From assembly GCA_964632335.1 (NCBI GenBank), contig CAZWDF010000002.1:1-31568 (forward strand): DNA of 31,568 nt, given 5' to 3'. The position numbers and the translations under genes were made by a program. Shown one piece after another: positions 1 to 31,568 of the stretch. Below the pieces are notes generated by a model. The model was not told the DNA's origin. It did not search any database and saw nothing but the letters and a program-made list of their open reading frames with translations. The stretch's first letter is position 1. Every line of letters starts with the position of its first letter. The DNA comes from an uncultured Candidatus Saccharibacteria bacterium (lineage in GTDB: Bacteria > Patescibacteriota > Minisyncoccia > Minisyncoccales > CAZWDF01).

Positions 1-55
1 TGCTATTGACCAGTGGTCGATACATCCTCCAAAATTTAAGGCATAGGAGCAAAGA
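1..55. repeat. 55-bp terminal direct repeat (copy 1); assembly overlap indicating a circular or circularly permuted 31,513-bp genome
   Basis: 1-55 is identical to 31514-31568; 55 is a common de Bruijn k-mer size. Confidence 0.95.
6..35 (+). promoter_or_regulatory. Possible sigma70-type promoter of the structural operon
   Basis: TTGACC (6-11), 18 nt, CAAAAT (30-35), upstream of SD TAGGAG and ATG 59; weak -10. Confidence 0.4.
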
Positions 56-2681: not shown

Positions 2682-5543
2682 ATGACAATAGCATTTACAA
2701 GAGCAACTAGAATAGATGAGATAGATCCGAGCTATCTTCCCGATAACGATACCCTGAGCTTCGGCGATGATTTCCCCATGAACATAGTCTGGGATACCAA
2801 AGACGCTAATGCCAATATGGGGAAAATCAACCTACCGAGTGGCGGAGCGATTGATGTGCCGGTACTAGCAATAGGCATCGGGATCATAGACGTTGACCTT
2901 GGCTGGGCTAATGGGGTAACAGAACCATCAATAGCCATTGTTGACGCTGACCGAGATAGCTACATCACTTTCGGATTTGCTTCAGACGATAATGCCCAAA
3001 TCCAAAAAGGTGGTAGCGCGTGGTTTTCCATGAGTCTCGGTGGTACTGTGCCAGCAACCGTTGACCATAGTTCGGGACTAACTGGGGTAAGCGCAGTCTA
3101 TAATGACCTCGGCACTCTTGTCTCTAATCAAACCTATCGAGGCATCTACGGGCGATGGAATGTCAAAAGCACCACGCCGTCTAACCCTACCTGCGAAGTA
3201 ACAGGCATTGAAGGGGCTGCTGGGTCGGCTATCAATGACGAGGCGATAACCTTCCGAGGCGGGTATTTTAGAACTTACATTGACACTGACACATTAGCAA
3301 CTGCCTCCATGCGCACCAATGTTGGCTGTGAAATATCAGCGCGCGCTGCTTATCTTGGTGGAACTGAGGCAACGGCTGAGGGTGGCACAGCCTTTATCGG
3401 CGCTCGCATCTGGATGGCCCCCTATTTCAGTGACGCTAGCATAGGGAATATAAACAACTTCCACGCCTTATGGATAGTAAACGAGGCAGACGGAAAGACT
3501 GTCACAAATGCCATAAAGATAGATTCGAGCACTTATGGCGGTGGATTCTCCTATGCTTTCTACACCGATGGTGGGCGCTTCTATCAGGTCGTAGACGGCT
3601 CTGTTAATGGCTCTCTTCTTCAAGCTGCGGATAGTTCGGCAACTGGCTGGAATCTTATTGAGGCAAGGGCTGAGGACTATCGGACACTAACAAGTAGCCA
3701 GGAATATAAAGGGGCTTATGTCCGCTACAACGTGCGGTCTACTACTCCCAGCAATCCCACCTGTGAAGTCACTGGTATTGAGGGCGTAGCAGGTAGCTAT
3801 ATTGCCGATGAAGCTATAACTTTCAGGGGCGGCTACTTCCGCACCTATATCAATGCAGACGCTACCTCCACCATGAGAACTGCCGTGGGTTGCGAGATTT
3901 CAGCCCGGGCAAGTTATAGCGGCGGAACGCAATGCGTTGCTGAAGGTGGGACTGCCTTTGTGGGAGCCAGGATTTGGATGGCCCCATACTTCACTTCGGG
4001 GTCTATTGGGAACGTTAATAACTTTCATGGCCTCTGGATTGTCAATGAAGCTCCAGGTAAATTCGTTACGAATGCCATTAAGATAGATGCCACGACCTAT
4101 AACAGTGGATTTACCTACTGCTTTAATACTGATAGTGGCAAATTCCGCATGGCTCTTGATGGGAGCGAAGCTGGTAGTGGCTTGCTAGCCGGGGAGACTG
4201 CAACTGCTACTGGCGATGATTGGTTCTATCTTCAGGTTGATGACTGCCGTACCCTGACTTCCCTACAAACCTACCGGGCAGCTTACATCCGAAACAACAT
4301 TCGCTCGACTACCCCTTCCAATCCCGCCTGCGAGGTTACGGGAATAGAGGGAGTCGCGGGAAGTTACATCGCTGACGAAGCTATCACGTTTAGAGGGGGC
4401 TACTTCAGGACTTATACCAACGCCGATGCCACGAGCACAATGAGGACGGCGGTAGGATGCGAGATAAGCGCCAGAGCATCATATTCTGGAGGGACAGAAT
4501 GCGTAGCGGAGGGCGGCACGGCTTTCGTTGGGGCAAGAATCTGGATGGCTGGCTACTTTACCGATGCTTCTATTCCAAATGTAAACAATAGCCACGCTCT
4601 TTGGATTGTCAACGAAGTTCCACACGGAGCGAATTGGGCTAAATATGTTGATAGAGCCATCACCATAGACTCCAATACTTACGGAGCAGCTTTTAACTAC
4701 AACTTCTACACCGATACGGGCAAGTTCTACATGCACCTTGATGGAGCGGTAGCTGGTTCCGGTGTAGTAAAAGGTGAACGATTAAGCACTTCTGGTGACG
4801 ATTGGATGTCGGTGATAATAGACGATTACCGAACTCTTACTTCAGATCAGACCTATAATGGAGCCTTCTTCCGCTATAATATCCGCTCTACGACTCCTGG
4901 GGCTCCTCAAATGGAGGTCAACGGCATTGAAGCCGTAGCATCGACTTACGTTGCTGATGGCAACCTTCTGAGTATGCGAGGTGGTCATTTACGCTGCTAC
5001 ATTCAGCCTGGGGCTACAGCATCAGCAAAGACTTCGGTAGGTGCGGATATATCGGCCAGAGCTTCTTATAATGGCGGAACAGCCTGTCAAGCCTTAGCGG
5101 GTACTTGTTTTACTGGTCTCCGAATATGGATGGCTCCGTATTTTACCGGCGGCACAGTAGGTAACATTAATAACTTCTGGGGCTTGTGGATATTCGGTGA
5201 ACACTCTAGCCAACGAAACGCCGATGCTGCTATATTCATTAGTGATGCTGGAGGTGGTTATGTTGATGGTATCCGAATCAGCTCTGTTCTTTCGGGTTAT
5301 GGTATAGACCTAAACGGTTCAACGATAGCTACAGCAGACATTAGGATGAATAACGGTTGCGTGATAAACAACGATTTGGTCGATAGGATAATGATTGGGG
5401 CAGCTATCGGGATATGCAATGACGCGGCGCCGTCTGCCAATGCTCCAGCTAATGCTTGCGTCATCTACTTTGACGGTACGAACATAAAAGCAGTGAACGC
5501 TGCTGGAGCACACGCTACATTAGATAACGCAGGATTCGCTTAA
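2682..5543 (+). CDS. 953-aa spike/fibre-like protein with four ~190-aa internal repeats
   Basis: Repeat core STTPSNP.CEVTGIEG.AGS.I.DEAITFRGGYFRTY..GCEISARA..WMAPYF at nt 3192, 3762, 4329 and 4911; Gly/Ala/Thr-rich beta composition; follows the capsid genes. Confidence 0.7.
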   Translation: MTIAFTRATRIDEIDPSYLPDNDTLSFGDDFPMNIVWDTKDANANMGKINLPSGGAIDVPVLAIGIGIIDVDLGWANGVTEPSIAIVDADRDSYITFGFASDDNAQIQKGGSAWFSMSLGGTVPATVDHSSGLTGVSAVYNDLGTLVSNQTYRGIYGRWNVKSTTPSNPTCEVTGIEGAAGSAINDEAITFRGGYFRTYIDTDTLATASMRTNVGCEISARAAYLGGTEATAEGGTAFIGARIWMAPYFSDASIGNINNFHALWIVNEADGKTVTNAIKIDSSTYGGGFSYAFYTDGGRFYQVVDGSVNGSLLQAADSSATGWNLIEARAEDYRTLTSSQEYKGAYVRYNVRSTTPSNPTCEVTGIEGVAGSYIADEAITFRGGYFRTYINADATSTMRTAVGCEISARASYSGGTQCVAEGGTAFVGARIWMAPYFTSGSIGNVNNFHGLWIVNEAPGKFVTNAIKIDATTYNSGFTYCFNTDSGKFRMALDGSEAGSGLLAGETATATGDDWFYLQVDDCRTLTSLQTYRAAYIRNNIRSTTPSNPACEVTGIEGVAGSYIADEAITFRGGYFRTYTNADATSTMRTAVGCEISARASYSGGTECVAEGGTAFVGARIWMAGYFTDASIPNVNNSHALWIVNEVPHGANWAKYVDRAITIDSNTYGAAFNYNFYTDTGKFYMHLDGAVAGSGVVKGERLSTSGDDWMSVIIDDYRTLTSDQTYNGAFFRYNIRSTTPGAPQMEVNGIEAVASTYVADGNLLSMRGGHLRCYIQPGATASAKTSVGADISARASYNGGTACQALAGTCFTGLRIWMAPYFTGGTVGNINNFWGLWIFGEHSSQRNADAAIFISDAGGGYVDGIRISSVLSGYGIDLNGSTIATADIRMNNGCVINNDLVDRIMIGAAIGICNDAAPSANAPANACVIYFDGTNIKAVNAAGAHATLDNAGFA

Positions 5544-5754: not shown

Positions 5755-6171
5755 GTGAAGAGAGTCAAAATCGATGACAAGCCTAAGACTATTCTAGGTA
5801 AGGCTTTCAGGGTAACGAATCCCGAAGGCGAAACATTTGGGGAGACTTATGTTTGTGAGCGATGCGGTAATGAGATAGTCGTGCAGAAGCCAAAGATGAT
5901 TGAAGAGGCAAGTTTGGTTGACCTCTTGAAGTTGCTAGTTCTTTCAATCCCCCGGCAGAAATGCACCATGCAGGACTCCATAAACGCCTTTGACTTCATG
6001 CAGCAGTCAAAGGAGTCCCAGGACGGCGTTCTAGCACTTACGGACGGCATACACGATTGGCTAAAGAAGGCTGTCAAGGAAAACGGGACTCAAATCTTTG
6101 GAGTCAATGCCAATGCGATAGAGAAGGCTTTGGAGAATTTCGAGAGGGTAAAGGAAAGCAAGGGGAAGTGA
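5755..6171 (+). CDS. Hypothetical protein with CxxC (CERC); possible spike chaperone
   Basis: SD GGAGGT, GTG start; function inferred from position only. Confidence 0.55.
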   Translation: MKRVKIDDKPKTILGKAFRVTNPEGETFGETYVCERCGNEIVVQKPKMIEEASLVDLLKLLVLSIPRQKCTMQDSINAFDFMQQSKESQDGVLALTDGIHDWLKKAVKENGTQIFGVNANAIEKALENFERVKESKGK

Positions 6172-7869: not shown

Positions 7870-8490
7870 ATGGGACTAGGCGTTAAGAAAATAGACATAG
7901 CTGCCATAACAGAAGCGAGGCTGGCGGAGCTTGATGCCGCCAATATGCCTGCTGACCTTGATGTGGTAAAGGCGGATACGCCTTATATTGCTGATCTCGC
8001 CTTGCCCACGACTCCTACTACGGGGTCACTAGGTAGATTAGCCAAGGATTATCTCACTGGCGATGCCTACGCTCGATTGGGAGCACCTGCTGGAGCAAGC
8101 GCGGCGGTGGATATTGCGGCAATCAAAACCGATACCGCCTCTCTTAAAATTCAAGCTCATGCTACGGGAACGCAAACAGCTACCGTAACCACAGAGCACT
8201 TCTTATCTTCGCCAAATGTCGCAGGGGCTTTTATGCTAGTGGTAGACATGATAAACATGGCGGCTAACGATGTTGTGGAGCTTCGGGCCTATCAAATGGT
8301 GCTTACAGGCGGAACAGCTCGGGTAGTCTACTTTATGGCTTACTATGGGGCTCAGGCTACCGATGAAATGATAACGGTATCCGATATAGTCTACAACGAA
8401 TTGGCAGAGACAAATGCTGTGAGGTTTAGCTTGAAACAGACATTTGGGACGGGTAGAGCTTTCCCGTGGAAGGTACTTAAACATGCCTAA
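7870..8490 (+). CDS. Spike shaft/head-like protein
   Basis: ARLGAPAGASAAVDIAAIK shaft-like segment followed by a beta-rich C-terminal domain. Confidence 0.5.
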   Translation: MGLGVKKIDIAAITEARLAELDAANMPADLDVVKADTPYIADLALPTTPTTGSLGRLAKDYLTGDAYARLGAPAGASAAVDIAAIKTDTASLKIQAHATGTQTATVTTEHFLSSPNVAGAFMLVVDMINMAANDVVELRAYQMVLTGGTARVVYFMAYYGAQATDEMITVSDIVYNELAETNAVRFSLKQTFGTGRAFPWKVLKHA

Positions 8491-9022
8491 GTTTCCTAAT
8501 AAGCTAGTTCTCCCTACTGGTCTTATAACTATATCGCCTTACTCTTTAGAGAGTACAGGAGCAGGTTCGGGTAGTTGGGGGGCACCAGCTAGTGCAGTAT
8601 GGGCATCAGCTAGTAGGGCAATTTATATTCCTTTCAGGATTTCCAAGCCTATTGCTGTTGTTAACCTATACTGCTTCAACGGGGCAGTGGTTAATGGGAA
8701 TATAGACCTTGGCATATATGATGTGGCTGGTACTCGCATTGTTTCTACTGGTTCAACAGCGCAGGCTGTGATTAACTCCCTTCAGGCAGTAGCCATAACA
8801 TCAACTGTAATAGGGCCTGGTATGTTCTACATGGCGATTGCACTAGATGGTACTGTAGGAACTATTTTTACGAGTAGAGCTGTGGGTGCTATTCCCCATA
8901 GAATAGCTATGGGTATGGCACAACAGGCAGCCGCTTTCCCTTTGCCTGCTACGGCCACATTCGCTACTATCACTGATAATAGCCTGCCTGTTGCTGGCCT
9001 ATCAAGAAGGTCGGTGGTATAA
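8483..9022 (+). CDS. Beta-rich structural protein, tandem paralog A (start MPKF)
   Basis: Paralog of 9023 (AIYIPFRISKPI..NGAVVNGNIDLGIYD..GTRIVSTGSTAQA..G.FYMAIALD..PATATFA). Confidence 0.7.
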   Translation: MPKFPNKLVLPTGLITISPYSLESTGAGSGSWGAPASAVWASASRAIYIPFRISKPIAVVNLYCFNGAVVNGNIDLGIYDVAGTRIVSTGSTAQAVINSLQAVAITSTVIGPGMFYMAIALDGTVGTIFTSRAVGAIPHRIAMGMAQQAAAFPLPATATFATITDNSLPVAGLSRRSVV

Positions 9023-9577
9023 ATGAGTAATTGGCCTATCCCGACATTTGAACCTCTAGTAACAATAAATCCTTGGTCAGAGGAGAGTATAGGTGATGCC
9101 ATTACTTCGGCAGGAGGGTCAGCTATCAGTCAAGCAGCATCCACCGCTTGGCCGACTGCTAACTTGGCCCTATATGTACCATTCCAAGTAAGAAAACCTA
9201 TTGTAGTAGTAAAGATGTTTTGTTACAACGGGGCTGCGGTAGCTGGCAATGTTGATGTTGGAATATATAGTGAATATGGTACAAGAATAGTCTCTATTGG
9301 TTCGACTGCACAAGCTGGGCTGAGTGCGATACAAGAATTTGATATTGCCGACACATTATTGGGGACAGGGATTTTTTATATGGCAATAGCTTTGGATGAT
9401 GCAACAGCCACAGCAACCATTCGGAGAGGGACAATGGCGGCTAATGCTATACCAGCCATAACAGGTATGGCACAAGAGCAACTAGCATCTGTTACCTTAC
9501 CTGCCACAGCTACTTTTGCCAGCATCGCAGGGAACTATATCCCTGTATTCGGTCTAACAGTGAGAACATTGATATAA
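9023..9577 (+). CDS. Beta-rich structural protein, tandem paralog B
   Basis: LYVPFQVRKPI..NGAAVAGNVDVGIYS..GTRIVSIGSTAQA..GIFYMAIALD..PATATFA. Confidence 0.7.
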   Translation: MSNWPIPTFEPLVTINPWSEESIGDAITSAGGSAISQAASTAWPTANLALYVPFQVRKPIVVVKMFCYNGAAVAGNVDVGIYSEYGTRIVSIGSTAQAGLSAIQEFDIADTLLGTGIFYMAIALDDATATATIRRGTMAANAIPAITGMAQEQLASVTLPATATFASIAGNYIPVFGLTVRTLI

Positions 9578-10295: not shown

Positions 10296-10481
10296 ATGAG
10301 CAGAGGTAAGTTGCCCTGGGTAAGTGCTGTAGTGGAAGTCGTGGGGATTGCTGTGATAGGTGGGGGCATTGCCTTGGAGATTGTCTATGAGGCAGATATT
10401 TATTGCTGGGTCATTACTACCAGCTCACTTCTTCTAGCCAGTGGCGGCTTACTCTGGGCAAAAGTCTATAGAGCGAGGTAA
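10296..10481 (+). CDS. 2-TM small membrane protein
   Basis: Two hydrophobic stretches; SD AAGGAG. Confidence 0.6.
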   Translation: MSRGKLPWVSAVVEVVGIAVIGGGIALEIVYEADIYCWVITTSSLLLASGGLLWAKVYRAR

Positions 10482-10485
10482 AGAT

Positions 10486-10944
10486 ATGGCTTATGAACTT
10501 CAGTCTGAAAAGTACTATGCCGCTTGGTATCCTTACAAGGGTGAGTATGAGATAGCTGTCTCAGATATTACCTTTGACCTACCTGATCAGCTATTACCCG
10601 AAGGATGGATTAGTAAAATCCATGCCCTTTTCGTGGATAAATTCAAAGAGTATGGCGAAACGATGCTCTACATGAAGACAGAAGTAGACAAAAGTGCTAC
10701 ATGGCAGACTAGGTTCAGAGTAACCACCTATTCGCACCCTGGCGTTCTAATAGTTTTAGGGGTCATTGCGGCGCTTATCGCGCTTGTTTTGCTTGCATCA
10801 ATGGTCTGGAACATCTCAACAGCTATTAAGACAATAAGTGAAAACCCTGTGCTATCATGGGGCTTTCTACTCATTGCCATAGCCGCTGTTGCCGTTGTCG
10901 GAGCGGTGATTTACTACCTTTACAAGACAGGAAAATTCGCTTAG
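10486..10944 (+). CDS. Membrane protein with two C-terminal TM helices (start MAYEL)
   Basis: SD GAGGT before ATG 10486; hydrophobic C-terminal half. Confidence 0.6.
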   Translation: MAYELQSEKYYAAWYPYKGEYEIAVSDITFDLPDQLLPEGWISKIHALFVDKFKEYGETMLYMKTEVDKSATWQTRFRVTTYSHPGVLIVLGVIAALIALVLLASMVWNISTAIKTISENPVLSWGFLLIAIAAVAVVGAVIYYLYKTGKFA

Positions 10945-10954
10945 GAGGTAAAAC

Positions 10955-11287
10955 ATGGCACAAAGTAAAGCATTGGCAAAGTTACCCTTGATGGAGAAGG
11001 GGTGGGCTAGGTTGTTAGCTGGAGTCGCCGCGGGTTGGCTAGTCAACTATGGTTGGCAAAAGGGTAAACTACCAGGGTATGGCAAGATAGTTTTCCAACT
11101 GCCCAAAGGAAGCCCAGAAGCAGGAGAAGTGTTTGCTGTAGCCTGGGACAATCTTGCTGAAGTAGGCATCGGTATAATTCTCCTACTCTTCGTAGACAAG
11201 ATGTTCGGTCTGGGATTTGTCCTTGGTATAGTGCTGGTTAAGGCACTAGAGTATGTCCCAGGATACCGGAAGGCACTTAAACTTTAA
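10955..11287 (+). CDS. Multi-TM membrane protein
   Basis: SD GGAGGT; three hydrophobic segments. Confidence 0.6.
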   Translation: MAQSKALAKLPLMEKGWARLLAGVAAGWLVNYGWQKGKLPGYGKIVFQLPKGSPEAGEVFAVAWDNLAEVGIGIILLLFVDKMFGLGFVLGIVLVKALEYVPGYRKALKL

Positions 11288-11320
11288 GGGATAGCCTCAG
11301 ACTATTTAGGAGGGGGAATA

Positions 11321-11722
11321 GTGCTGGAGTACAGGGTCTTCATTGGCACTTATGGCAACGGTACAACTAACCCTAGCCCTGGGTCTGTTGTCGTTCCATC
11401 GGGAGTTGCATTAACGATACAAGCGATCCCCGGTGATGGGACTTACCCTACGCGCCTATGGTTCTGGATGGTTAATGGCGTTGTAGTTAGTAAAAGTAGC
11501 GCCATCACGGTAAAGGACGCATGTAGAGTAGAAGCAAACTTTTACACAGAGGGGTGGACTCCAGGCATAGAGCCTCCGATAGCACCGCCTGACGAAATAG
11601 ACCAAACGCCATTTGTACCCCCTGGTGGTGGAGGGGGCAGTAAGATTATCTGGGCTATTGGGCTCTTTGCCATAGCTATTGCCATATTCATTATTGCGTC
11701 AGGGAAGGGGAAGGGAAAATGA
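11321..11722 (+). CDS. Membrane-anchored protein with divergent InlB B-repeat (Flg_new-like) domain
   Basis: GNGTTNPSPGSVVVPSGVALTIQAIP..FW.VNG..ANF, Pro/Gly linker, C-terminal TM plus basic tail. Confidence 0.55.
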   Translation: MLEYRVFIGTYGNGTTNPSPGSVVVPSGVALTIQAIPGDGTYPTRLWFWMVNGVVVSKSSAITVKDACRVEANFYTEGWTPGIEPPIAPPDEIDQTPFVPPGGGGGSKIIWAIGLFAIAIAIFIIASGKGKGK

Positions 11723-12060
11723 ACATACAACTAACCATAGGGCTAAATGAGGTAGTCTATCCCGGGGTAACCATGCCAATTGCCGATGCTGTAGCCTCCA
11801 TAGCTACCACGATAAACGCTGTTTGGTACTACGACAAGATAGCTGACAAGTGGCTAGGCTATGCTCCCTCAGCCCCATCATGGGCAAATGACCTAGCAAC
11901 CGTTACGAAAGGCGAGACCTATAGTGTGACGGCCTTAGAGAATTGTACCTGGGTTATCGACACAGGGCAACCGAAGAGCGATTGGTGGAAGATTATTGTG
12001 GCGGTACTGATGCTCGTGGGCTTGATAGCCCTAGCGGTTTTATGGGGGAAAATTGAATGA
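11719..12060 (+). CDS. Membrane-anchored protein with a surface-protein-like domain (VWYYD..W.GY.P.AP.WANDL)
   Basis: Motif recalled from Chloroflexota surface proteins; C-terminal TM. Confidence 0.5.
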   Translation: MNIQLTIGLNEVVYPGVTMPIADAVASIATTINAVWYYDKIADKWLGYAPSAPSWANDLATVTKGETYSVTALENCTWVIDTGQPKSDWWKIIVAVLMLVGLIALAVLWGKIE

Positions 12061-12518
12061 AAAAGACCGACTTAGCCTATATTGCAGGGCTCTTTGATGG
12101 CGAAGGCTGTGTTTCTTTCAGCACTAGCAAATATAAACCAAGGGGTACTGTTAGCCACCAGATTTTAGTAACCCTAGGCAATACTGAGGAGTACCCTATT
12201 CAATGGCTTCACCTATGCTATGGCGGTAGCATTTATGTCCGGAAGCCTCCAAAACAATTCCCACGAGCCAAAACACTTTATGTATGGCGGTTACTATGCC
12301 AAGAAGCCTGCAATTTTTTGAAGGATATTGAGCCTTATCTAATTATCAAGAAACCCCAAGCAACTATAGCTATTAAGTACGGCGAATCTCTTAGGGTTGG
12401 GGGATACAAGGGTCACCCCAAGACTGAAGGGGAAAGGGCTGTTGATGAAGCCTATAAAATTATGATAAGCAACCTCAACAAGAGGGGAAAGCATGATATT
12501 GATGTCTCAACTAAATAA
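12057..12518 (+). CDS. Free-standing LAGLIDADG homing endonuclease (single motif)
   Basis: LAYIAGLFDGEGC motif; IEPYLIIKKPQA; start overlaps the upstream stop (ATGA). Confidence 0.88.
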   Translation: MKKTDLAYIAGLFDGEGCVSFSTSKYKPRGTVSHQILVTLGNTEEYPIQWLHLCYGGSIYVRKPPKQFPRAKTLYVWRLLCQEACNFLKDIEPYLIIKKPQATIAIKYGESLRVGGYKGHPKTEGERAVDEAYKIMISNLNKRGKHDIDVSTK

Positions 12519-12535
12519 GATAGGACGGGAATAGA

Positions 12536-12820
12536 ATGGCAATCCAGACTGCCGCCGGCATAGGCATGGCTCTTATCGCGAGTGAGCATTTTTACTCTAC
12601 GATGCTATCAAGCCCTCCAACAACTGAGAAGTTCTTTTCTGATACTGACGAGGGCAAGGCAAAGACTAGGCATATGTATTTGACGGCTACAGCCTTATCT
12701 ATAGTCACGGCGGTACTATTGAGCTATATCTTAAAAGAGCCTTGGCCGTTGGTTGCTACCATTGTTCTTTGCATAATTTATATTTACATCTATGAAAGGG
12801 CTTTAAGGGGCGAGGTCTAA
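12536..12820 (+). CDS. Multi-TM membrane protein
   Basis: Hydrophobic segments. Confidence 0.6.
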   Translation: MAIQTAAGIGMALIASEHFYSTMLSSPPTTEKFFSDTDEGKAKTRHMYLTATALSIVTAVLLSYILKEPWPLVATIVLCIIYIYIYERALRGEV

Positions 12821-12821
12821 T

Positions 12822-13256
12822 ATGCTTCAAATAACGAGAGTTTGGGCTGAACCATCAAGCCTAAACGCTGGCGGAAGCACCACTATCAACGTAGAAGTGC
12901 AGAACCCGGACACCAATGCAGTATCGGGGCGTTGTAGTGTCGCTATCTTAGCTACGGATTACCCGTCTGTGGGGCAGGACTCTTACGACCACGGCTGGGA
13001 GAAAGCCATAGCCCTTGCCTCGCAAGAGACAAAGGTCTTCCCCTTTGCCGATTCTGGGCTAAAGGCCCCATACGGTAGAAGCTGGGCGGCTCGCGTAACT
13101 TTGATGGTAGATACGACAATACTAGACACGAAAACCTTTGACAATATCTATGAGGTTAAGGCAATTATACCGCCAACGAAGCAAGAGATACCTTGGGTGT
13201 GGCTTCTCATTGGAGTAGTCGCGATTGTAGGCTTCGTGATAGCAACAAAGGAATAA
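12822..13256 (+). CDS. Ig-like domain protein with C-terminal TM anchor; paralog of 14287
   Basis: MLQITRVWAEPSSLNAGGSTTINVEV..PYGRSW vs MIKILRVTAIPNTVPDGGSCTVVLEL..CYGRSW. Confidence 0.6.
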   Translation: MLQITRVWAEPSSLNAGGSTTINVEVQNPDTNAVSGRCSVAILATDYPSVGQDSYDHGWEKAIALASQETKVFPFADSGLKAPYGRSWAARVTLMVDTTILDTKTFDNIYEVKAIIPPTKQEIPWVWLLIGVVAIVGFVIATKE

Positions 13257-13268
13257 AAGGAGGTGGGG

Positions 13269-13391
13269 GTGAATTTAGGTAAAATAGATACGATACTTTT
13301 CGCAATCCTAGTTCTGGTAGTGCTCATCGAGTTTTACTGGACATGGCAAGACAGAAAGAAAGGAATTCAAAAAGCAGGAGGCGTGTTATGA
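13269..13391 (+). CDS. 40-aa single-TM peptide (not in ORF track)
   Basis: SD AAGGAGGT, GTG start; MNLGKIDTILFAILVLVVLIEFYWTWQDRKK..; stop overlaps ATG 13388. Confidence 0.6.
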   Translation: MNLGKIDTILFAILVLVVLIEFYWTWQDRKKGIQKAGGVL

Positions 13392-13900
13392 ACACAAAAA
13401 CAATCATCTTGGTAGTGGTCACTCTGGGAATAATAGGGCTCATCCTCTGGTTTATGAGGCAGGAGAAGAAACAAACGGGGTTGATGCTGCAAATCATCGA
13501 CAACAAGACGGGAAAGACACTCGAAGCTCACTCGCCAGTCGACTTGCTCGAAGGCGGCTCATACACAATACGAGCCAAGGTCACCAACACCAGCACAAAA
13601 GCTGGCGTGGGCGTAAACGCTCACCTTGCTACGAACCTGGTACTGTCATACACAGACGCAGGCGGAGCAACTAGACTCATAAACTCCAAAACCGATGATG
13701 TTTTTTACATCGCCGGGGCAGCTCGTGTTATAGACCTAGTGGTAACGATACCATCTGATGCCGCAGGGCGTTATGGAGAAGCAATCGCTGTGGTTACTTC
13801 CATGGATGTTAACCAAGAACTAGCTCGCAAAACCATCCCAACAAAATATATAGCTGCTCCGTTCGTTTACGGAGTTTCGCTTGAGTGGGCGGTAATCTAA
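13388..13900 (+). CDS. N-terminally anchored Ig-like domain protein (start MNTKT)
   Basis: TM segment followed by beta-rich YTIRAKVTNT..DLVVTIP. Confidence 0.6.
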   Translation: MNTKTIILVVVTLGIIGLILWFMRQEKKQTGLMLQIIDNKTGKTLEAHSPVDLLEGGSYTIRAKVTNTSTKAGVGVNAHLATNLVLSYTDAGGATRLINSKTDDVFYIAGAARVIDLVVTIPSDAAGRYGEAIAVVTSMDVNQELARKTIPTKYIAAPFVYGVSLEWAVI

Positions 13901-14286: not shown

Positions 14287-14637
14287 ATGATAAAGATTCT
14301 CAGAGTAACGGCTATCCCAAACACAGTGCCAGATGGAGGGTCATGCACAGTAGTGCTCGAACTTAGTTCAGACCAGATTGGTAAGGTTTATGCCCGCATG
14401 ATGTTCGGTGTATCTGGCTCTAACGGAGAAGAATTTTCTCCAGACCAGAGTTTCGAGAGGGCTATAACTACCAGCATAGACCGCACAAGCTCGCATCCGT
14501 GGAAAATAAAAGTTAGACCGTGTTACGGTAGGAGTTGGGTTTGTAGGGCCTATATCTACAAGACAAGGCTACCTAATGGCAAACTCGAAGATGAGATTGA
14601 CCACCTGTTTGTTGACCCGATATACCAAGTTACTTAG
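14287..14637 (+). CDS. Ig-like protein, unanchored paralog of 12822
   Basis: Shared N-terminus and YGRSW motif. Confidence 0.6.
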   Translation: MIKILRVTAIPNTVPDGGSCTVVLELSSDQIGKVYARMMFGVSGSNGEEFSPDQSFERAITTSIDRTSSHPWKIKVRPCYGRSWVCRAYIYKTRLPNGKLEDEIDHLFVDPIYQVT

Positions 14638-16868: not shown

Positions 16869-17291
16869 TTAACCATATCTCTGTAAGATTTCTCTTGCGA
16901 ATTTAACTAAGTCCTTAACCTTTGCACCTTTTGGTTGCCAGGATACCCATAATTCAAGATTCTCTATTCTGTTATCATCCTTGACACCATTCTTATGATG
17001 GACACTTTCACCGGGTAGTAATTTCCGACCTAGATATTCCTGCATAACAAGTCGATGGAGAAGTTGTCCTTGTCTCTCTCCGTCAACATATCTGCGGATA
17101 TATCCCTTTGGTTCTTTATAATCATGTCTTTTTCTTATAGGTTTATCAGTAGAACCATACCTTTGAAATCTTCCCCAATGTATCCGACAATAACCATGAC
17201 TCCTGAGATTGAGATTGCATCCTTCAACTTGGCATTTCTGTGGCACCCGATGCCCAAATTTGTGTTTTGGTTTTTCTTCTTCATTATTCAT
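16869..17291 (-). CDS. HNH endonuclease (HNH_3-like) with N-terminal Zn motif
   Basis: [25 protein letters not shown]; C.VEGC..GYCRIH. Confidence 0.85.
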
Positions 17292-17930
17292 GCCTTAATA
17301 TTAACACAAGCTCTTAACAAATACAACCCAATGTATTCCGTGTAGGCTGGGGGGATTGCTTGGGTTAGCTCTCTTATATCCATCCAGTCTATCTGCATGG
17401 CTTTTTCAAGACGTGGCTTAGTCCAGATATTCGGTAAATGCCCCCTTTTAACACTTGTTCCGTGATGGTATGGTAGGTAACCTTCGGCTCGATAATTTTT
17501 GACTTGATGAGGTGCGGGGATAAGAAGAATATCAAAACCAGATAACTCAAATAACCGGCGTCTGATAATCTTTAATCCAAATGACATTCCCGATAGTTCA
17601 ATAGGATTTTCAAGTGGCGCACCAAGGACATTCTCAATCACGAAAGGTTTAGCCGTTTCCTTCAAAGCGAGACGAGTATCATCAATATATTTGCCTGCGC
17701 CTTTCACGCCTTGCATATATTGAGAAATAGAATAGCTTTGGCATGGCGGGCTGGCGTGGTAGGCATCATAGCCTTCCAAGGGAAAGGTCAAGGCATCGGC
17801 TTGGTAGAACTCAAAGGGGTAATGAGGCTGTGGACGATTGTCAATTCCTACGATACGGAAACCTGCTAGGTAATAACCGAGAGCTGCTCCGCCGGCACCA
17901 GAAAAGAGGTCTAGGAGAACTGGGCGTTTT
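17288..17930 (-). CDS. C5-cytosine methyltransferase-like protein (short phage type); start codon unclear
   Basis: [10 protein letters not shown] (motif I), ASPPCQ (motif IV), IENV (motif VI), AIPP; no nearby in-frame ATG/GTG/TTG. Confidence 0.75.
17298..17326 (-). promoter_or_regulatory. Candidate leaderless promoter for HNH 16869..17291, inside the 3' end of the MTase
   Basis: TTGTAT-17-TAATAT, with TG extension, 6 nt before the ATG. Confidence 0.45.
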
Positions 17931-18477
17931 GCGTAATCGTCGTTCCAACTATCTTCCCAGTCAAAGTAAGCTCGTAATGATGGTTTGCACAGAGAAGACG
18001 GAAGTCGGATACGTGTTCCTTGATGTACTTCAAATGACGTGGATGCCTGTAGGGCTTCCCGTTTGTCGTAGGAATATAGTCCACATGAAGCCAATTCGGA
18101 TTGCTCACGCCGCATACTATACATTTACCCCCCAGTATGCGGATGATTTCAAGGCGCTCATTATGTTGTTTCTCTCGCCATGCCCCTGGATGTTTGGCAA
18201 TACGTCTGGAGTTATAAGTAGCCATGATACTAGGGTGTGCTTGGTGCCATGCCAAAGTATTCTTTTGGTAAGCCTTCTTGCTACACGCCTGAGAGCAGTA
18301 GCGCCGATTTTGATCGCCTCTATTGATAGGGAATTCCTTACCACAGACTTTGCAATTACGCACGTTGGGTAAGTGCTTTGCGTATCGCTGAGAGCAACGG
18401 TAGGAACAAAACTTTTTCCGAGATGGTCGTATGGCTTCAACTTCTCGGTCGCAATAGAGACACTTGATTGTTGACAT
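17911..18477 (-). CDS. Zn-finger plus HNH-like endonuclease inserted at the MTase 5' end
   Basis: Repeated CxxC..FCS..C modules; CIVCG..LHVDYI..FRLLCANHH. Confidence 0.7.
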   Translation of the reverse strand: MSTIKCLYCDREVEAIRPSRKKFCSYRCSQRYAKHLPNVRNCKVCGKEFPINRGDQNRRYCSQACSKKAYQKNTLAWHQAHPSIMATYNSRRIAKHPGAWREKQHNERLEIIRILGGKCIVCGVSNPNWLHVDYIPTTNGKPYRHPRHLKYIKEHVSDFRLLCANHHYELTLTGKIVGTTITQNAQFS

Positions 18478-18482
18478 ACTTT

Positions 18483-18511
18483 ATTATAACATAACATCAT
18501 TTGTGCGTCAA
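18483..18511 (-). promoter_or_regulatory. Consensus sigma70 promoter driving the leaderless HNH 17911..18477
   Basis: TTGACG-17-TATAAT with extended TG; ATG 5 nt downstream. Confidence 0.75.
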
Positions 18512-18512
18512 C

Positions 18513-18548
18513 TGCACCACAGAACAAATCTAATAATCTAGGTTTCAT
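18513..18548 (-). pseudogene. Orphaned 5' stub of the C5 MTase (MKPRLLDLFCGA)
   Basis: SD GAGG plus ATG; canonical MTase motif I start, homology ends at the inserted promoter. Confidence 0.7.
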
Positions 18549-19105: not shown

Positions 19106-19912
19106 TCACGCCCCCAGCTCCATCACGGTCTGCGAGCATCTTCTCGCCGCGATCTCTGCATAGCGTTCCTCAATTTCTATCCCGATGCACTTTCGCCCTA
19201 GCTTCTTGGCACAGTAGGCGGTTGTGCCTGAGCCGAGGAAGGGGTCGAGGATAACCTCACCTTGCTGCGTTGATTGGGATATGAGAACTTTGAATAACCC
19301 AGTTGGCTTTTGTGTTGGGACTTCTTGGTCTGCTCCTTCAATACGTTTGCATTGGATAACATCGGGGATAGACAGGTCGTTTAACCTTCGGTTCTTTCCT
19401 TTGTCAAACATCAATATAAGTTCATAACAGCAACGATAGTGATAACCCATCCCCATTGATAACTTGTCCCAAACCAGCGTTTTTAAATGGTCGAAAGGTG
19501 GTGCATAATCTCGCTGACACGGATTCCCGTATTTGTCGCAACAGTTGAAGCCCAACCGCATGAGAATGTAGAAAGATGGTAATGTCACTTCATCACACAT
19601 CACGTAAGCATGTCGGGATTCTTTCAAGGATTCTGAAAACTGGTAAGTCAATGCCATCAAATTCTCATTCGGTATTGTCTTGAAGAACTTACTCTCATCA
19701 TCAGCCCCGCTACCCTTTCTTCCCATACCCATCCGTGCCGTAGTGCCAATACCCTCCCATCTTCTCATGCTCTCGTACGGTGGGTCAGTCAGCACTAGAT
19801 CAATGCTCCCCGCCGGTATCAGAGGCAGAACCTGACGGCAGTCAGCGTGGACTATGCACACCGCATCATCTGAATAGTAGGGCTTCGTGATCCCGAACTT
19901 ACTCCAGTCCAT
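19106..19912 (-). CDS. N6-adenine/N4-cytosine DNA methyltransferase (beta class)
   Basis: DLVLTDPPY (motif IV) precedes ILDPFLGSGTT (motif I); PTQKP; IGIEIEERY. Confidence 0.9.
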   Translation of the reverse strand: MDWSKFGITKPYYSDDAVCIVHADCRQVLPLIPAGSIDLVLTDPPYESMRRWEGIGTTARMGMGRKGSGADDESKFFKTIPNENLMALTYQFSESLKESRHAYVMCDEVTLPSFYILMRLGFNCCDKYGNPCQRDYAPPFDHLKTLVWDKLSMGMGYHYRCCYELILMFDKGKNRRLNDLSIPDVIQCKRIEGADQEVPTQKPTGLFKVLISQSTQQGEVILDPFLGSGTTAYCAKKLGRKCIGIEIEERYAEIAARRCSQTVMELGA

Positions 19913-20321: not shown

Positions 20322-20588
20322 CTATTCTATCCCCCATTCTTTGAGTTTGTTATTCCATCTATCCTTAAAACTGACTGGAATAGACGCCATATTCAGCATG
20401 GGAAATACCTCATCATTAACAAACTCCACCACTTCCTTAATCCCTGCCTTGAAGGAGATTTCAGCCTGGCCTTGAGCTATAATCTTGCACCACCCAGTTA
20501 CATTTTCGGCTTTACCCTCTTTTGACTTTTGCAACCTCACTTCGTTTATGGCGGCTATTGTCATTACAGTATCTTTCGCTTCTAGCAT
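20322..20588 (-). CDS. Hypothetical phage protein
   Basis: AEISFKAGIKEVVE..W..KLKEWG motif recalled from small phage proteins. Confidence 0.55.
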   Translation of the reverse strand: MLEAKDTVMTIAAINEVRLQKSKEGKAENVTGWCKIIAQGQAEISFKAGIKEVVEFVNDEVFPMLNMASIPVSFKDRWNNKLKEWGIE

Positions 20589-21004
20589 TTAACTAACCAC
20601 CTTCCATATGCCTCTTTACGACATAATCTACAGTCTCTTCCTGGTCTATCAGGACGTAAGTATGTGTTCTCATCATCATAGGGATGCCCTTTGGGACAAT
20701 GAGTTTTGCTTTCTTGATATTGCCTTCCGATTTCTGGCAATAAACCTCGCCTTATATTTTCGCTACGAGTTACAAGTTCCATATGGGCAGGATTAACACA
20801 TTTTCTATTCCTGCAAATATGGTCTATCTCCAAGTCCAAAGGAATGATTCCTACTAAAGTCTCATAGGCAAAGCGATGTGCCTTAATCTTTTTTCTGTTG
20901 ACATAAAAACTACCATATCCATTTGCATAACAACTCGCCGTCCATTCCCAACAGCCATCAGGAGTTCTATTTATGTTCTTCCAGAATCTAGCAATAGCTT
21001 CCAT
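20582..21004 (-). CDS. HNH endonuclease (HNH_3-like; start MEAIARF)
   Basis: GCWEWT..NGYG..KAHRFAYE..LEIDHICRNRKCVNPAHME; KTHCPKGHPY. Confidence 0.88.
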   Translation of the reverse strand: MEAIARFWKNINRTPDGCWEWTASCYANGYGSFYVNRKKIKAHRFAYETLVGIIPLDLEIDHICRNRKCVNPAHMELVTRSENIRRGLLPEIGRQYQESKTHCPKGHPYDDENTYLRPDRPGRDCRLCRKEAYGRWLVKC

Positions 21005-21219
21005 TGCTTCTCTCTCCTTTCTCTTGTTTGAAAGGGCATCCCCTACAGTGCCAGTCGCATCTAGCAGAATACCTTCTATCAATTTTGATAACCTTTCTAT
21101 ATCTCATTCTTCTTTCCTAGTGGATCAGTGAGGTTAAGGTATTATCCTTAGATTTCATGGCTACTCCTTCCCTTTGCCAGCTTGCCCAGAGCTACGGCCT
21201 GACCTAATATCCACTCTGG

Positions 21220-22744: not shown

Positions 22745-23578
22745 CTATTCAGGGTACAACTTCTTCACTGCTTCAAGAGCCTTAACTGGTCCCTGCTTCC
22801 ACTCTGCCATAGTCTTCACCCCCAACATTGCTACCACATCTGCTTGAATGAGACCTTTCTTTCGGGAATAAGTCCAAAGTTCAGTATAGTCATCTGACTT
22901 TGTGGCTTTGGGCTTTTCTGCTTCGGTTTGGGGCTTTGCCTCTGGGCTTTGTCCTATTGGACTCTCAGGCTCAACCGCTTCCTTCTCTATACTCTCAGGC
23001 ATGTCTTCCAAATCCTGAGTGAACACATTAGACAGCCTACCGGCACTCAGGGCCGCATCCACCAAGGCTCGCTTCTTTGCCATCTTTAGGATAGTGTTGA
23101 CTTGGCTGAAAATGTCCTCATTATCAAAACGATAGACTGTCCAATGTCCACCTGTTTTAGAACGTCTTTCCTGGCTAACCAACTTAGTCTTATCAATTCC
23201 CTCTGGTAAATCCCTCTCACCTATCCACCGGTAGTGGTATTTGCTCTCCATACTGTTACATTCGCCAAAGCCCTGCGATATGATAGTCCCAGTTGCCAAA
23301 TGCCGAAGGTTGCACTGTAGCAGGTATCGGAAAAATGGCTTATTCCAATCCTCTTGCCTATCCAAGATTTCATATTCATCTGCCAAGCCAAGAAGTTTGA
23401 CTATCTTCTCGGCACCAGGCTTTAGTAACGTGGGCTTTGTAGTGCCGGGGATCACGCCATAATCCTGATCCTTGACCATGTTGGCATGAACTATTTGCTG
23501 GAACTTGTTGATTGCCTGAATGCTTTGCCTGAATTGTGCCTCGTCTGGTAGTGCTAGTGCTGTAGTTTCCATTGTCAT
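22745..23578 (-). CDS. Putative single-strand annealing protein (Rad52/Erf-like, inferred)
   Basis: DYGVIPGTTKPTLLKPGAEK..KMAKKRALVDA..FTQDLED; next to a PD-(D/E)XK nuclease. Confidence 0.5.
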   Translation of the reverse strand: MTMETTALALPDEAQFRQSIQAINKFQQIVHANMVKDQDYGVIPGTTKPTLLKPGAEKIVKLLGLADEYEILDRQEDWNKPFFRYLLQCNLRHLATGTIISQGFGECNSMESKYHYRWIGERDLPEGIDKTKLVSQERRSKTGGHWTVYRFDNEDIFSQVNTILKMAKKRALVDAALSAGRLSNVFTQDLEDMPESIEKEAVEPESPIGQSPEAKPQTEAEKPKATKSDDYTELWTYSRKKGLIQADVVAMLGVKTMAEWKQGPVKALEAVKKLYPE

Positions 23579-23774: not shown

Positions 23775-24446
23775 TTATCCTATTAGACCCTTCACGGTCT
23801 TGTGCCTCTTATGCAGATTCAAACAACTCAGAAAGGACTCCCACGCATCCGGCAATTCCTGTCTCCAGATGTGGTCGAAGCCCGCCGTGTCTTTGTCTAT
23901 GCGGAGCAGGTGGAATCCGCCCTCCAGTAGCATATCAGGGTGATTCTCTTCCCATGCTGCACGGTAGGCGGCAATCTGAAGGGCATACTCCTCGTGGATG
24001 GAATTGCTACTCTTCCAGTCAAACAAGCAAAGCCTGTCGTTTATCCGGGCAATGCAGTCTGGCGTAGCCCCATACTGCCAAATCTCAGAGACAAGATGTG
24101 GTTCGAGGGCCACAACTTCAAGATGATTCTGCCCTTTCCAAACAGTGAAACTAACAAAGGCTTGTATAGCCTTTAACTTTATGCCCTCTTCAACCTCTTC
24201 GGGAATATGGTATTCCTCTTTCTTTAGGTTAGCCTCAATCATTGCATGGCATATCGTTCCCGCATCCGCCGCCCTCTGCATTGTCCCTTTATAATCTTGT
24301 GGTCTTCCCGATAAGCCGTCATCATGCCCTCTGTTATAGTTCCAAATACACAATGGGGTCTTTGACCAGCCAAGGTTAGAGCCAATGATAGTTGTAGTCC
24401 CCGATACCCGATCGCCGTTTTTGTTTCTGTAGTCAATCGTAGGCAT
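23775..24446 (-). CDS. PD-(D/E)XK exonuclease-like protein (start MPTIDY)
   Basis: GTICHAMIE..YGATPDCIA..LFDWKSS..LQIAAY. Confidence 0.85.
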   Translation of the reverse strand: MPTIDYRNKNGDRVSGTTTIIGSNLGWSKTPLCIWNYNRGHDDGLSGRPQDYKGTMQRAADAGTICHAMIEANLKKEEYHIPEEVEEGIKLKAIQAFVSFTVWKGQNHLEVVALEPHLVSEIWQYGATPDCIARINDRLCLFDWKSSNSIHEEYALQIAAYRAAWEENHPDMLLEGGFHLLRIDKDTAGFDHIWRQELPDAWESFLSCLNLHKRHKTVKGLIG

Positions 24447-24456
24447 TGTTTTCCTT

Positions 24457-24708
24457 TCAGTGGATTGGCTTGTGCCACTCCCCAACCGTGGCAATGGCCT
24501 CCTCCCGCCCTGCCTCAAAGGTTTTACCCTTGATGAGGTCAATAAGCTCGGTAAGTGTGCCTTCCCACACCAACTCATCAGTATGGATAAGCCTTAACTC
24601 CCACCGTCCCCCTCCCTCATGGGCTTTGAGGTTCCCCTCGAGTGTTACAAATTGCCTATCACCTTCGGACTCATAGCACCGGAACCCCATCGATTTATAG
24701 TTTTCCAT
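24457..24708 (-). CDS. Hypothetical protein
   Basis: SD AGGAG; co-oriented. Confidence 0.5.
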   Translation of the reverse strand: MENYKSMGFRCYESEGDRQFVTLEGNLKAHEGGGRWELRLIHTDELVWEGTLTELIDLIKGKTFEAGREEAIATVGEWHKPIH

Positions 24709-31513: not shown

Positions 31514-31568
31514 TGCTATTGACCAGTGGTCGATACATCCTCCAAAATTTAAGGCATAGGAGCAAAGA
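31514..31568. repeat. 55-bp terminal direct repeat (copy 2)
   Basis: Exact copy of 1-55. Confidence 0.95.

What the first reader, a model, noticed from the sequence alone, without database searches (positions are those of the whole stretch)
3192..5330. Spike repeats nearly identical in protein but synonymously recoded at or beyond saturation
Seen (manual count): repeats 2 (from 3762) and 3 (from 4329) differ at only two residues over about 74 aa, yet about 56 of 69 degenerate codons differ. Random uniform codon choice predicts about 48. Five conserved serines switch between TCN and AGY boxes (agc/tcc, tcc/agc, tca/agc, agt/tca, agc/tct), which normally needs two changes through a non-Ser intermediate. 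Inference: selection to remove DNA identity so the four-repeat array is not collapsed or homogenised by the virus's own annealing protein/exonuclease. The repeat unit itself is not a family I recognise.
Basis: partly seen in the sequence, partly recalled or inferred. Interest (0 to 1): 0.7.

Follow-up and report, generated by a model that had tools for sequence, protein, structure and literature searches.

The report
Old spike repeats, synonymous sites saturated
A viral surface protein carries four ancient copies of a 190-residue unit whose silent sites have fully randomised under strong protein-level constraint. That part is ordinary; a small extra excess of codon differences occurs in this genome only and is unexplained.

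Summary
ORF 2682-5543 (953 aa) holds four tandem units of about 190 aa. One detail is wrong: 4 of 5 serines switch codon box, not 5.

Saturation needs no special selection:
- Each unit's closest relative is the unit at the same position in other genomes (81-87% aa), so the duplications are older than those genomes.
- Those positional counterparts are themselves synonymously saturated.
- 44% of conserved serines switch box in between-genome comparisons.

A small excess beyond saturation does exist in this genome. R1-R3 show 282 differing codons against 251.5±8.5 in codon shuffles (z +3.6), and R1/R3 exceeds all 425 between-genome control pairs. Against a recombination-avoidance reading:
- The longest identical runs (9-12 nt) equal the shuffle median.
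- Other paralogues in the window show no excess.
- 17 related genes sit at or below saturation.
- Several relatives carry identity tracts of 23-107 nt between units.
- Units per protein range from 1 to 4 across the family.

The unit is an undescribed, rare domain, and its fold could not be predicted.

The parts
2682..5543 (+). Spike/fibre-like ORF, 953 aa
   Evidence: No Pfam, PHROG, NCBIfam or PDB sequence match. It has 51 homologues of 300-1700 aa with variable ends.
2682..3134 (+). N-terminal region (aa 1-151), probable virion anchor
   Evidence: P0003 aligns from about residue 17 of the window protein and P0006 has a similar N-terminus by eye. P0002, P0004, P0007, P0009 and P0012 carry a different N-terminus. 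The anchor role is inferred.
3135..3704 (+). Repeat unit R1 (core 3192-3419)
   Evidence: hmmsearch domain 152-341. Closest unit is P0002_R1, 81% aa.
3705..4271 (+). Repeat unit R2 (core 3762-3983)
   Evidence: Closest unit is P0002_R2, 87% aa.
4272..4853 (+). Repeat unit R3 (core 4329-4550)
   Evidence: Closest unit is P0003_R3, 83% aa.
4854..5423 (+). Repeat unit R4, divergent 'terminal-type' unit
   Evidence: 37-41% aa identity to R1-R3 and 70-77% to the last units of P0002, P0003, P0004 and P0005. Last units are terminal-type in 32 of 36 multi-unit proteins.
5424..5543 (+). C-terminal tail
   Evidence: The ending ...NAPAN.C..Y.DGT..KA...A.ATL.NA.F. is shared with P0002, P0004 and P0005.
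5755..6171 (+). 138-aa gene that travels with the spike gene
   Evidence: 41-63% identical homologue in all 8 related loci, 0.2-1.8 kb downstream of the spike gene; the downstream position was checked for L009, L011 and L015. Function unknown.
23775..24578 (-). Exonuclease (PD-(D/E)XK type)
   Evidence: phrog_298 'exonuclease', E 1.9e-24. Pfam PDDEXK_1 is weak and below the cut-off.
22745..23578 (-). Neighbour of the exonuclease, possible annealing protein (inferred only)
   Evidence: phrog_10048, unknown function, E 6e-60. Homologues are hypothetical proteins of bacterial tailed phages. No Pfam, NCBIfam or PDB match.

Best explanation
The array is an old internal duplication of a roughly 150-190-aa domain in a virion-surface (spike or fibre-like) protein.

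The four units were already in place, and already differentiated by position, before the related viruses carrying this gene diverged. Since then strong purifying selection has held the roughly 75-residue core almost constant. Synonymous sites have drifted to complete randomisation. That alone yields near-identical protein with about 57-64% DNA identity, no shared string longer than 12 nt, and frequent TCN/AGY serine switches.

Occasional gene conversion or partial re-duplication between units does occur in the family and is tolerated. This genome simply shows no recent event.

The extra ~12% of codon differences among R1-R3 in this genome is a small residual. I treat it as unexplained: either a chance outlier or a weak lineage-specific effect.

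Shown: unit architecture, positional relationship to units in other genomes, saturation, tracts in relatives, variable copy number. Inferred: surface or host-recognition role, oligomeric beta-rich shaft.
For: - Units pair by position across genomes: R1~P0002_R1 81%, R2~P0002_R2 87%, R3~P0003_R3 83%, R4~P0004_R4 77%. Within the window the values are 65-75%.
- Positional counterparts at 81-93% aa identity have NG86 pS 0.74-0.88, i.e. saturated. Window paralogues have pS 0.87-0.96.
- The core consensus is conserved family-wide.
- 17 related genes (8 recovered through the protein search, 9 from metagenome contigs): within-gene codon-difference z lies between -1.9 and +2.0, or is strongly negative.
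- P0005 R1/R3 share a tract of about 170 nt at ~97% identity, including a 107-nt perfect run. P0009 has runs of 30-36 nt, P0012 29 nt and P0002 23 nt.
- Units per protein among 94 family members: 1 in 58, 2 in 24, 3 in 7, 4 in 5.
- Serine box switches: 1132 of 2565 (44%) in between-genome unit pairs.
- Longest in-register identical run in the window is 9-12 nt, equal to the shuffle median (P about 0.5).
- Another tandem paralogue pair in the window (8444-9022 / 9023-9577) has z -0.6.
- The spike is far more conserved (62-76%) than other shared genes (24-58%, mostly 30-49%; the 138-aa gene downstream of the spike is the exception at 41-63%). This fits very strong constraint or module exchange.
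Against: - The window's R1-R3 exceed the random-codon expectation: 282 against 251.5±8.5 (within-repeat shuffles), or 245.8±9.2 (gene codon usage, z +3.9, 0 of 3000).
- R1/R3 overall, and R1/R3 and R2/R3 in the core, exceed all 425 between-genome control pairs.
- Two-fold codon columns are all-identical in only 3 of 38, where at least 25% is expected. That is lower than all 60 cross-genome triplets.
- Identity runs of 8 nt or more are about half the shuffle mean for R1/R2 and R1/R3.
- Neutral divergence approaches saturation from below and cannot overshoot it. If this residual is not chance, pure drift does not explain it.
Confidence: 0.7

Rival explanations
1. On top of ordinary saturation, selection (or survivorship) against in-register DNA identity has pushed codon choice in the co-resident units R1-R3 apart. 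This would lower recombination, slippage or conversion that collapses or homogenises the array. Such events might be promoted by the virus's own exonuclease and partner protein.
For: - The excess is specific to co-resident pairs. WIN_R1 x WIN_R3 has z +3.4. WIN_R1 against other genomes' R3-type units, and WIN_R3 against other genomes' R1-type units, give z -1.4 to +1.2.
- It is strongest in the conserved core, where P0005 shows a conversion tract.
- It is spread over all degeneracy classes. Two-fold codons differ in 62% of comparisons, where the maximum expected is 50%.
- Identity runs of 8 nt or more are depleted for R1/R2 and R1/R3.
- An exonuclease gene is present. No homologue of it or of its neighbour was found in the sequenced parts of 8 related loci.
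Against: - 17 related genes with the same architecture show no excess, and several tolerate identity tracts of 23-107 nt.
- The longest identical run is no shorter than with random codons.
- At about 57-64% identity with runs of 12 nt or less, homologous recombination substrates are already gone, so the benefit of further recoding should be minute (inference from general knowledge).
- Other paralogues in the window show no excess.
- The annealing protein is not identified.
- The window was chosen because it looked extreme.
Confidence: 0.22
2. Slow concerted evolution. The near-identity of the protein cores is maintained partly by rare gene conversion between units, each event followed by long synonymous decay. 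The window would simply be long past its last event.
For: - A tract consistent with conversion lies exactly in the core of P0005 R1/R3, with shorter tracts in P0009, P0012 and P0002.
- P0003 R1/R2 and P0005 R1-R3 are slightly more alike within their genome than to positional counterparts.
- The same debate exists for polyubiquitin repeats (PMC10457151).
Against: - In the window there is no residual DNA similarity at all (z positive, runs of 12 nt or less).
- Window units are closer to positional counterparts than to each other.
- The core is just as conserved between genomes, where conversion cannot act.
Confidence: 0.08

Closest known systems
Polyubiquitin coding repeats (purifying selection/birth-and-death versus slow concerted evolution; Sharp & Li 1987 and Nei et al. 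2000, as reviewed in PMC10457151)
   Same: Head-to-tail coding repeats give (near-)identical protein while synonymous sites differ heavily. Copy number varies between lineages. Occasional homogenisation occurs. The same question arises of whether protein identity reflects constraint or conversion.
   Different: - Here the units are about 190 aa, only the ~75-aa core is near-identical, and they remain part of one protein.
- According to PMC10457151, ubiquitin repeats within a species are usually more similar in DNA than repeats between species. The window's units are the opposite: slightly less similar than random.
Modular phage tail-fibre and tailspike proteins with repeated shaft domains
   Same: - A large protein in a block of unannotated genes on the + strand, presumed structural.
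- An exchangeable N-terminal region and variable C-terminal modules.
- One homologue (P0025) carries a right-handed beta-helix region matching tail-spike PHROGs.
- A collagen-like gene lies next to the P0008 homologue.
   Different: - The unit itself matches no Pfam, PHROG, NCBIfam or PDB family.
- No tail, portal, terminase or HK97 capsid gene is recognisable in the genome.
- The protein is more conserved than the rest of the genome, whereas host-recognition proteins are usually the least conserved.
Engineered codon-diversified repeats, such as recoded TALE arrays or repeat proteins made stable against recombination (from my own knowledge, not checked in the library)
   Same: Identical or near-identical protein repeats encoded by deliberately different codons, leaving no long identical DNA.
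   Different: Engineered designs minimise shared k-mers. Here the longest shared strings equal random expectation, and relatives are not recoded.

Membership tests
Ancient tandem domain duplication under purifying selection | Units group by position across genomes rather than by genome | tested here: met
   Identity matrix of 31 units from 9 genes. Each window unit's best match is the same-position unit of another genome.
Ancient tandem domain duplication under purifying selection | Synonymous divergence at saturation, and equally so between positional counterparts in different genomes | tested here: met
   pS is 0.87-0.96 within the window and 0.74-0.88 between positional counterparts. The 400 between-genome pairs below 78% aa identity have mean z -0.5, SD 1.0 against random codon draws.
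Ancient tandem domain duplication under purifying selection | Synonymous divergence does not exceed saturation | tested here: not met
   Window R1-R3 jointly give z +3.6 to +3.9. The excess is small, about 30 codons out of 379 comparisons.
Selection for DNA dissimilarity between repeats (anti-recombination recoding) | Codon differences between co-resident repeats above the random expectation and above non-co-resident controls | tested here: met
   Met in this window only. R1/R3 has z +3.3 and exceeds 425 of 425 between-genome pairs.
Selection for DNA dissimilarity between repeats (anti-recombination recoding) | Identity tracts shorter than with random synonymous codons | tested here: inconclusive
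   The longest run equals the shuffle median (P about 0.5). Runs of 8 nt or more, and the sum of squared run lengths, are reduced for R1/R2 and R1/R3 (P 0.01-0.04) but not for R2/R3.
Selection for DNA dissimilarity between repeats (anti-recombination recoding) | Signal shared by relatives with the same architecture; stable copy number; no conversion | tested here: not met
   Relatives have z near 0 or negative. They carry identity tracts of 23-107 nt between units. Units per protein range from 1 to 4.
Selection for DNA dissimilarity between repeats (anti-recombination recoding) | A recombination system in the same genome that would act on the repeats | tested here: inconclusive
   An exonuclease is present (phrog_298). 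The neighbouring protein has no known function, and no annealing protein is identified.
Concerted evolution by gene conversion | Tracts of high DNA identity between units within a genome | tested here: not met
   Window: the longest shared string is 10-12 nt. The feature is met in relatives P0005, P0009 and P0012.
Phage tailspike/tail fibre | Recognisable tail-spike or fibre domain, or beta-helix fold | tested here: inconclusive
   No family match for the window protein. Two AlphaFold2 runs gave pLDDT 54 and 59 with almost no secondary structure. Only homologue P0025 has a Beta_helix/tail-spike region, and it lies outside the unit.

The most novel reading that the evidence does not exclude
In this one viral lineage, which carries its own exonuclease module, co-resident repeat units are under selection to use different synonymous codons. 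This would be natural 'recoding' that overshoots neutral saturation to protect a repeat array from collapse or homogenisation.
Probability: 0.2. Interest if true: 0.75.

Novelty: new member of a known kind. Interest (0 to 1): 0.35.

Why it matters
As it stands, this is a clean example of how strong protein constraint plus age mimics deliberate recoding. It also gives a reusable control: compare co-resident units with non-co-resident units from other genomes.

If the small overshoot were shown to be selected, it would be, to my knowledge, the first natural case of synonymous sites driven beyond saturation to avoid intragenic recombination. That would be of interest for virus genome stability and for the design of repeat proteins.

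Separately, the unit is a rare, undescribed domain, with 69 representatives among 1.84 billion protein clusters. It sits in a complete circular 31.5-kb element that has no recognisable capsid or tail genes. It is also the most conserved gene shared with its relatives, which is unusual for a presumed host-recognition protein.

Tried and rejected
- Tandem Repeats Finder on the gene: nothing found, as expected for saturated repeats.
- Pfam, PHROGs, NCBIfam and PDB sequence searches of the protein and of the unit profile: no meaningful hit.
- tblastn against GenBank phages: no match.
- Scan of GTDB genomes: no relative, so no host assignment. Only one distant single-unit homologue is named, from a Thermoplasmata MAG.
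- AlphaFold2 of unit R2 with 31 sequences (pLDDT 54), and of R4 plus the C-terminus with 33 more diverse sequences (pLDDT 59). Both are unusable, so no fold search was run.
- Profile search with alignment A1 in the word-indexed database returned only 6 extra proteins.
- Explanations of the overshoot that I rejected:
  - Different codon usage between units. Within-repeat shuffles keep each unit's codon counts and still give z +3.3, and third-position composition is similar.
  - A genome-wide effect. Other paralogues in the window have z of about +0.3 or below.
  - A property of R1 or R3 as such. Their z against units of other genomes is about 0.
  - Assembly artefact. Only shared strings of about 55 nt or more could matter for a k=55 assembly.
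- Attempt to show a conserved exonuclease-partner gene pair in Lacticaseibacillus phage R9.1: the upstream gene there is unrelated.
- Hypothesis that single-unit relatives carry the 'terminal' unit type: not supported (25 against 33).
- The literature search for natural recombination-avoiding recoding was uninformative.
Full report
**1. What is there**

ORF 2682-5543 (+, 953 aa) has these parts:
- an N-terminal region of about 150 aa;
- four tandem units: R1 3135-3704, R2 3705-4271, R3 4272-4853, R4 4854-5423;
- a 40-aa tail.

Amino-acid identity is 69% (R1/R2), 65% (R1/R3) and 75% (R2/R3). R4 is 37-41% identical to the others. A core of about 75 residues (3192-3419, 3762-3983, 4329-4550) is far more conserved than the rest. 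At the DNA level nothing repeats:
- Tandem Repeats Finder finds no array.
- Nucleotide identity is 55-64% among R1-R3 and about 46-48% against R4.
- The longest shared exact string between any two units is 10-12 nt.

**2.

I reproduced it exactly: 74 aa from 3762/4329, 72 identical, 69 with degenerate codons, 56 with different codons, uniform expectation 47.7 (z +2.25). The only error concerns the serines. The pairs are AGC/AGT, TCC/AGC, TCA/AGC, AGT/TCA and AGC/TCT, so four of five switch box.

**3. Is saturation surprising? No.**

I recovered the DNA of eight homologous genes and a further nine multi-unit genes from metagenome contigs.

- Each window unit is most similar to the unit at the same position in another genome: R1 to P0002_R1 81%, R2 to P0002_R2 87%, R3 to P0003_R3 83%, R4 to P0004_R4 77%. 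The duplications and the positional differentiation therefore predate these genomes.
- In multi-unit proteins the last unit is of the 'terminal' type in 32 of 36 cases.
- The same-position pairs are themselves saturated at 81-93% protein identity. NG86 pS is 0.74-0.88. For example, P0002_R3 and P0004_R3 are 93% identical in protein, yet 96 of 168 codons differ.
- The core consensus is conserved across the family.
- Serine box switches occur at 44% of conserved serines in between-genome unit pairs, and at 34% even for pairs of at least 78% identity.

So near-identical protein with randomised codons is the family norm. It is what old duplicates under very strong purifying selection look like. 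The classical parallel is the polyubiquitin repeat debate (PMC10457151).

**4. Is it beyond saturation? Slightly, in this genome only.**

Evidence for a real excess:
- Against shuffles that permute synonymous codons within each unit, R1/R2 differ at 94 codons against 83.1±4.9 (z +2.2). R1/R3 differ at 94 against 78.8±4.6 (z +3.3, 0 of 2000). R2/R3 differ at 94 against 89.6±5.0 (z +0.9). Jointly: 282 against 251.5±8.5 (z +3.6).
- Monte Carlo with the gene's codon usage gives 245.8±9.2 (z +3.9).
- Even under uniform usage, the most conservative independent-draw null, R1/R3 has z +3.0. That exceeds all 425 between-genome unit pairs (mean -0.98, SD 1.16, maximum 1.95).
- The excess is spread over all degeneracy classes. 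Two-fold codons differ in 62% of comparisons, where the maximum expected is 50%. Columns with a two-fold residue in all three units carry the same codon in only 3 of 38, where at least 25% is expected. That is below all 60 cross-genome triplets.
- It is specific to co-resident units. WIN_R1 against other genomes' R3-type units, and WIN_R3 against other genomes' R1-type units, give z between -1.4 and +1.2.
- Neutral divergence cannot overshoot saturation, and I found no compositional explanation. So this residual is either a chance outlier or a weak real effect. As a rough estimate, allowing for the 59 within-gene pairs tested gives P of about 0.03 for R1/R3; counting only the window's other five pairs gives about 0.003.

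**5. Evidence against the anti-recombination reading**

(a) The longest identical run in every window pair (9-12 nt) equals the shuffle median. Only runs of 8 nt or more are somewhat depleted, for R1/R2 and R1/R3.

(b) Relatives with the same architecture show no excess. Joint z over the non-terminal units is P0002 -0.2, P0004 -1.8, P0003 +1.2, P0008 +0.75 and P0007 -1.4. The nine additional genes lie between -1.2 and +1.1.

(c) Several relatives are below saturation and carry identity tracts between units. P0005 R1/R3 share about 170 nt at ~97% identity, including a perfect 107-nt run at L012 10427/11558, located exactly in the core. P0009 has runs of 30-36 nt, P0012 29 nt and P0002 23 nt.

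(d) Units per protein range from 1 to 4: among 94 family members, 58, 24, 7 and 5 proteins have 1, 2, 3 and 4 units.

(e) Another tandem paralogue pair in the same genome (8444-9022 / 9023-9577, 52% identical) has z -0.6.

(f) The recombination premise is only half established. 23775-24578 (-) is an exonuclease (phrog_298, E 2e-24). Its neighbour 22745-23578 (-) belongs to a PHROG of unknown function and has no Pfam, NCBIfam or PDB match.

**6. What the protein is**

- The unit is a rare, undescribed domain. A profile search of 1.84 billion representatives found 69 proteins.
- There is no Pfam, PHROG, NCBIfam or PDB match.
- Homologues are 300-1700 aa with interchangeable N- and C-terminal modules. 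One has a right-handed beta-helix region matching tail-spike PHROGs.
- Two monomer AlphaFold2 attempts failed (pLDDT 54 and 59). The fold is unknown.
- A regular alternation of hydrophobic residues roughly every 20 aa and the failure as a monomer are compatible with an oligomeric beta-rich shaft. That is inference only.
- The gene lies in a + strand block of unannotated genes that I take to be structural. A conserved 138-aa gene (5755-6171) follows it and accompanies it in all eight related loci.
- My functional assignment is a virion-surface host-recognition protein: an N-terminal anchor and a shaft of four units, the last of a distinct type. This is inferred, not shown.

**7. Context**

- The window is a complete circular element. 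It has a 55-nt terminal overlap, leaving 31,513 bp unique.
- It encodes an integrase, a DnaA/IstB-like ATPase, two DNA methyltransferases and HNH endonucleases. A P-loop ATPase is weakly similar to STIV B204/HerA packaging ATPases.
- No portal, tail or HK97 capsid gene is recognisable. The only terminase-like signal is the P-loop ATPase's partial match to a 'terminase large subunit' PHROG.
- Shared genes with relatives are mostly 30-49% identical (range 24-58%; the 138-aa downstream gene is 41-63%), whereas the spike is 62-76%. That implies extreme constraint or exchange of the spike module between distant viruses.

**8. Verdict**

Saturation is ordinary. The overshoot is small, real in the statistics, confined to this genome and unexplained. 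I give about 0.2 to the reading that it reflects selection for DNA dissimilarity.

Noticed in passing
window 1-55 and 31514-31568: The first 55 nt are identical to the last 55 nt. The contig is most likely a complete circular genome of 31,513 bp assembled at k=55.
   Followed up: partly
window 2682-5543 compared with the rest of the genome; L010, L012, L014: The spike gene is 62-76% identical in protein to relatives. Other shared genes (structural block, ATPase, integrase) are mostly 30-49% (range 24-58%); the 138-aa gene downstream of the spike is 41-63%. The presumed host-recognition gene is therefore the most conserved one, suggesting module exchange or unusual constraint.
   Followed up: partly
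window 5755-6171 (+): A 138-aa gene of unknown function has a 41-63% identical homologue in all eight related loci, 0.2-1.8 kb downstream of the spike gene. It may be an assembly factor or part of the same module.
   Followed up: no
L012 10367-10533 and 11498-11664 (P0005 units R1 and R3): A tract of about 170 nt at ~97% identity (107 nt perfect from 10427/11558) between non-adjacent units, flanked by ~65% identity. It looks like a gene-conversion tract in the conserved core.
   Followed up: yes
L009 2342-4597 (P0002 units R1-R4): Third-position GC falls along the gene from 0.62 and 0.72 (R1, R2) to 0.48 and 0.38 (R3, R4). This suggests a mosaic gene assembled by recombination between viruses of different composition. 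P0007 shows a similar jump in its last unit.
   Followed up: no
window 8444-9022 and 9023-9577 (+): Two adjacent paralogous genes (192 and 184 aa, 52% identical) of unknown function. Their codon differences are at or slightly below the random expectation.
   Followed up: partly
window 12822-13256 and 14287-14637 (+): Distant paralogues (31% identical over 86 aa). They lie in a stretch of small genes (about 10441-13900), several with hydrophobic, membrane-like segments.
   Followed up: no
window 28791-29561 (-): A 256-aa P-loop ATPase next to the integrase, with weak similarity to STIV B204 and HerA packaging ATPases and to a 'terminase large subunit' PHROG. No portal, tail or HK97 capsid gene is recognisable in the genome, so this may be a non-tailed virus.
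   Followed up: partly
window 16869-17291, 20582-21082, 27529-28191, 12057-12518: ORFs that look like homing endonucleases. 27529-28191 matches Pfam HNH and NUMOD3. 16869-17291 and 20582-21082 look HNH-like by eye only and were not scanned. 12057-12518 has a LAGLIDADG-like motif (YIAGLFDGEG) but no Pfam match. This would be a high load of mobile nucleases for 31 kb.
   Followed up: no
window 19106-19912 (-) and 17288-18124 (-): Two DNA methyltransferases (N6/N4 type and C5 type), probably anti-restriction. ORFs 17911-18477 and 18117-18548 overlap the C5 methyltransferase region, so gene calls there are ambiguous.
   Followed up: no
window around 16000: GC skew and AT skew change sign where gene orientation switches from + to -. 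This divides the genome into a + strand block of unannotated, presumably structural genes and a replication/lysogeny arm.
   Followed up: no
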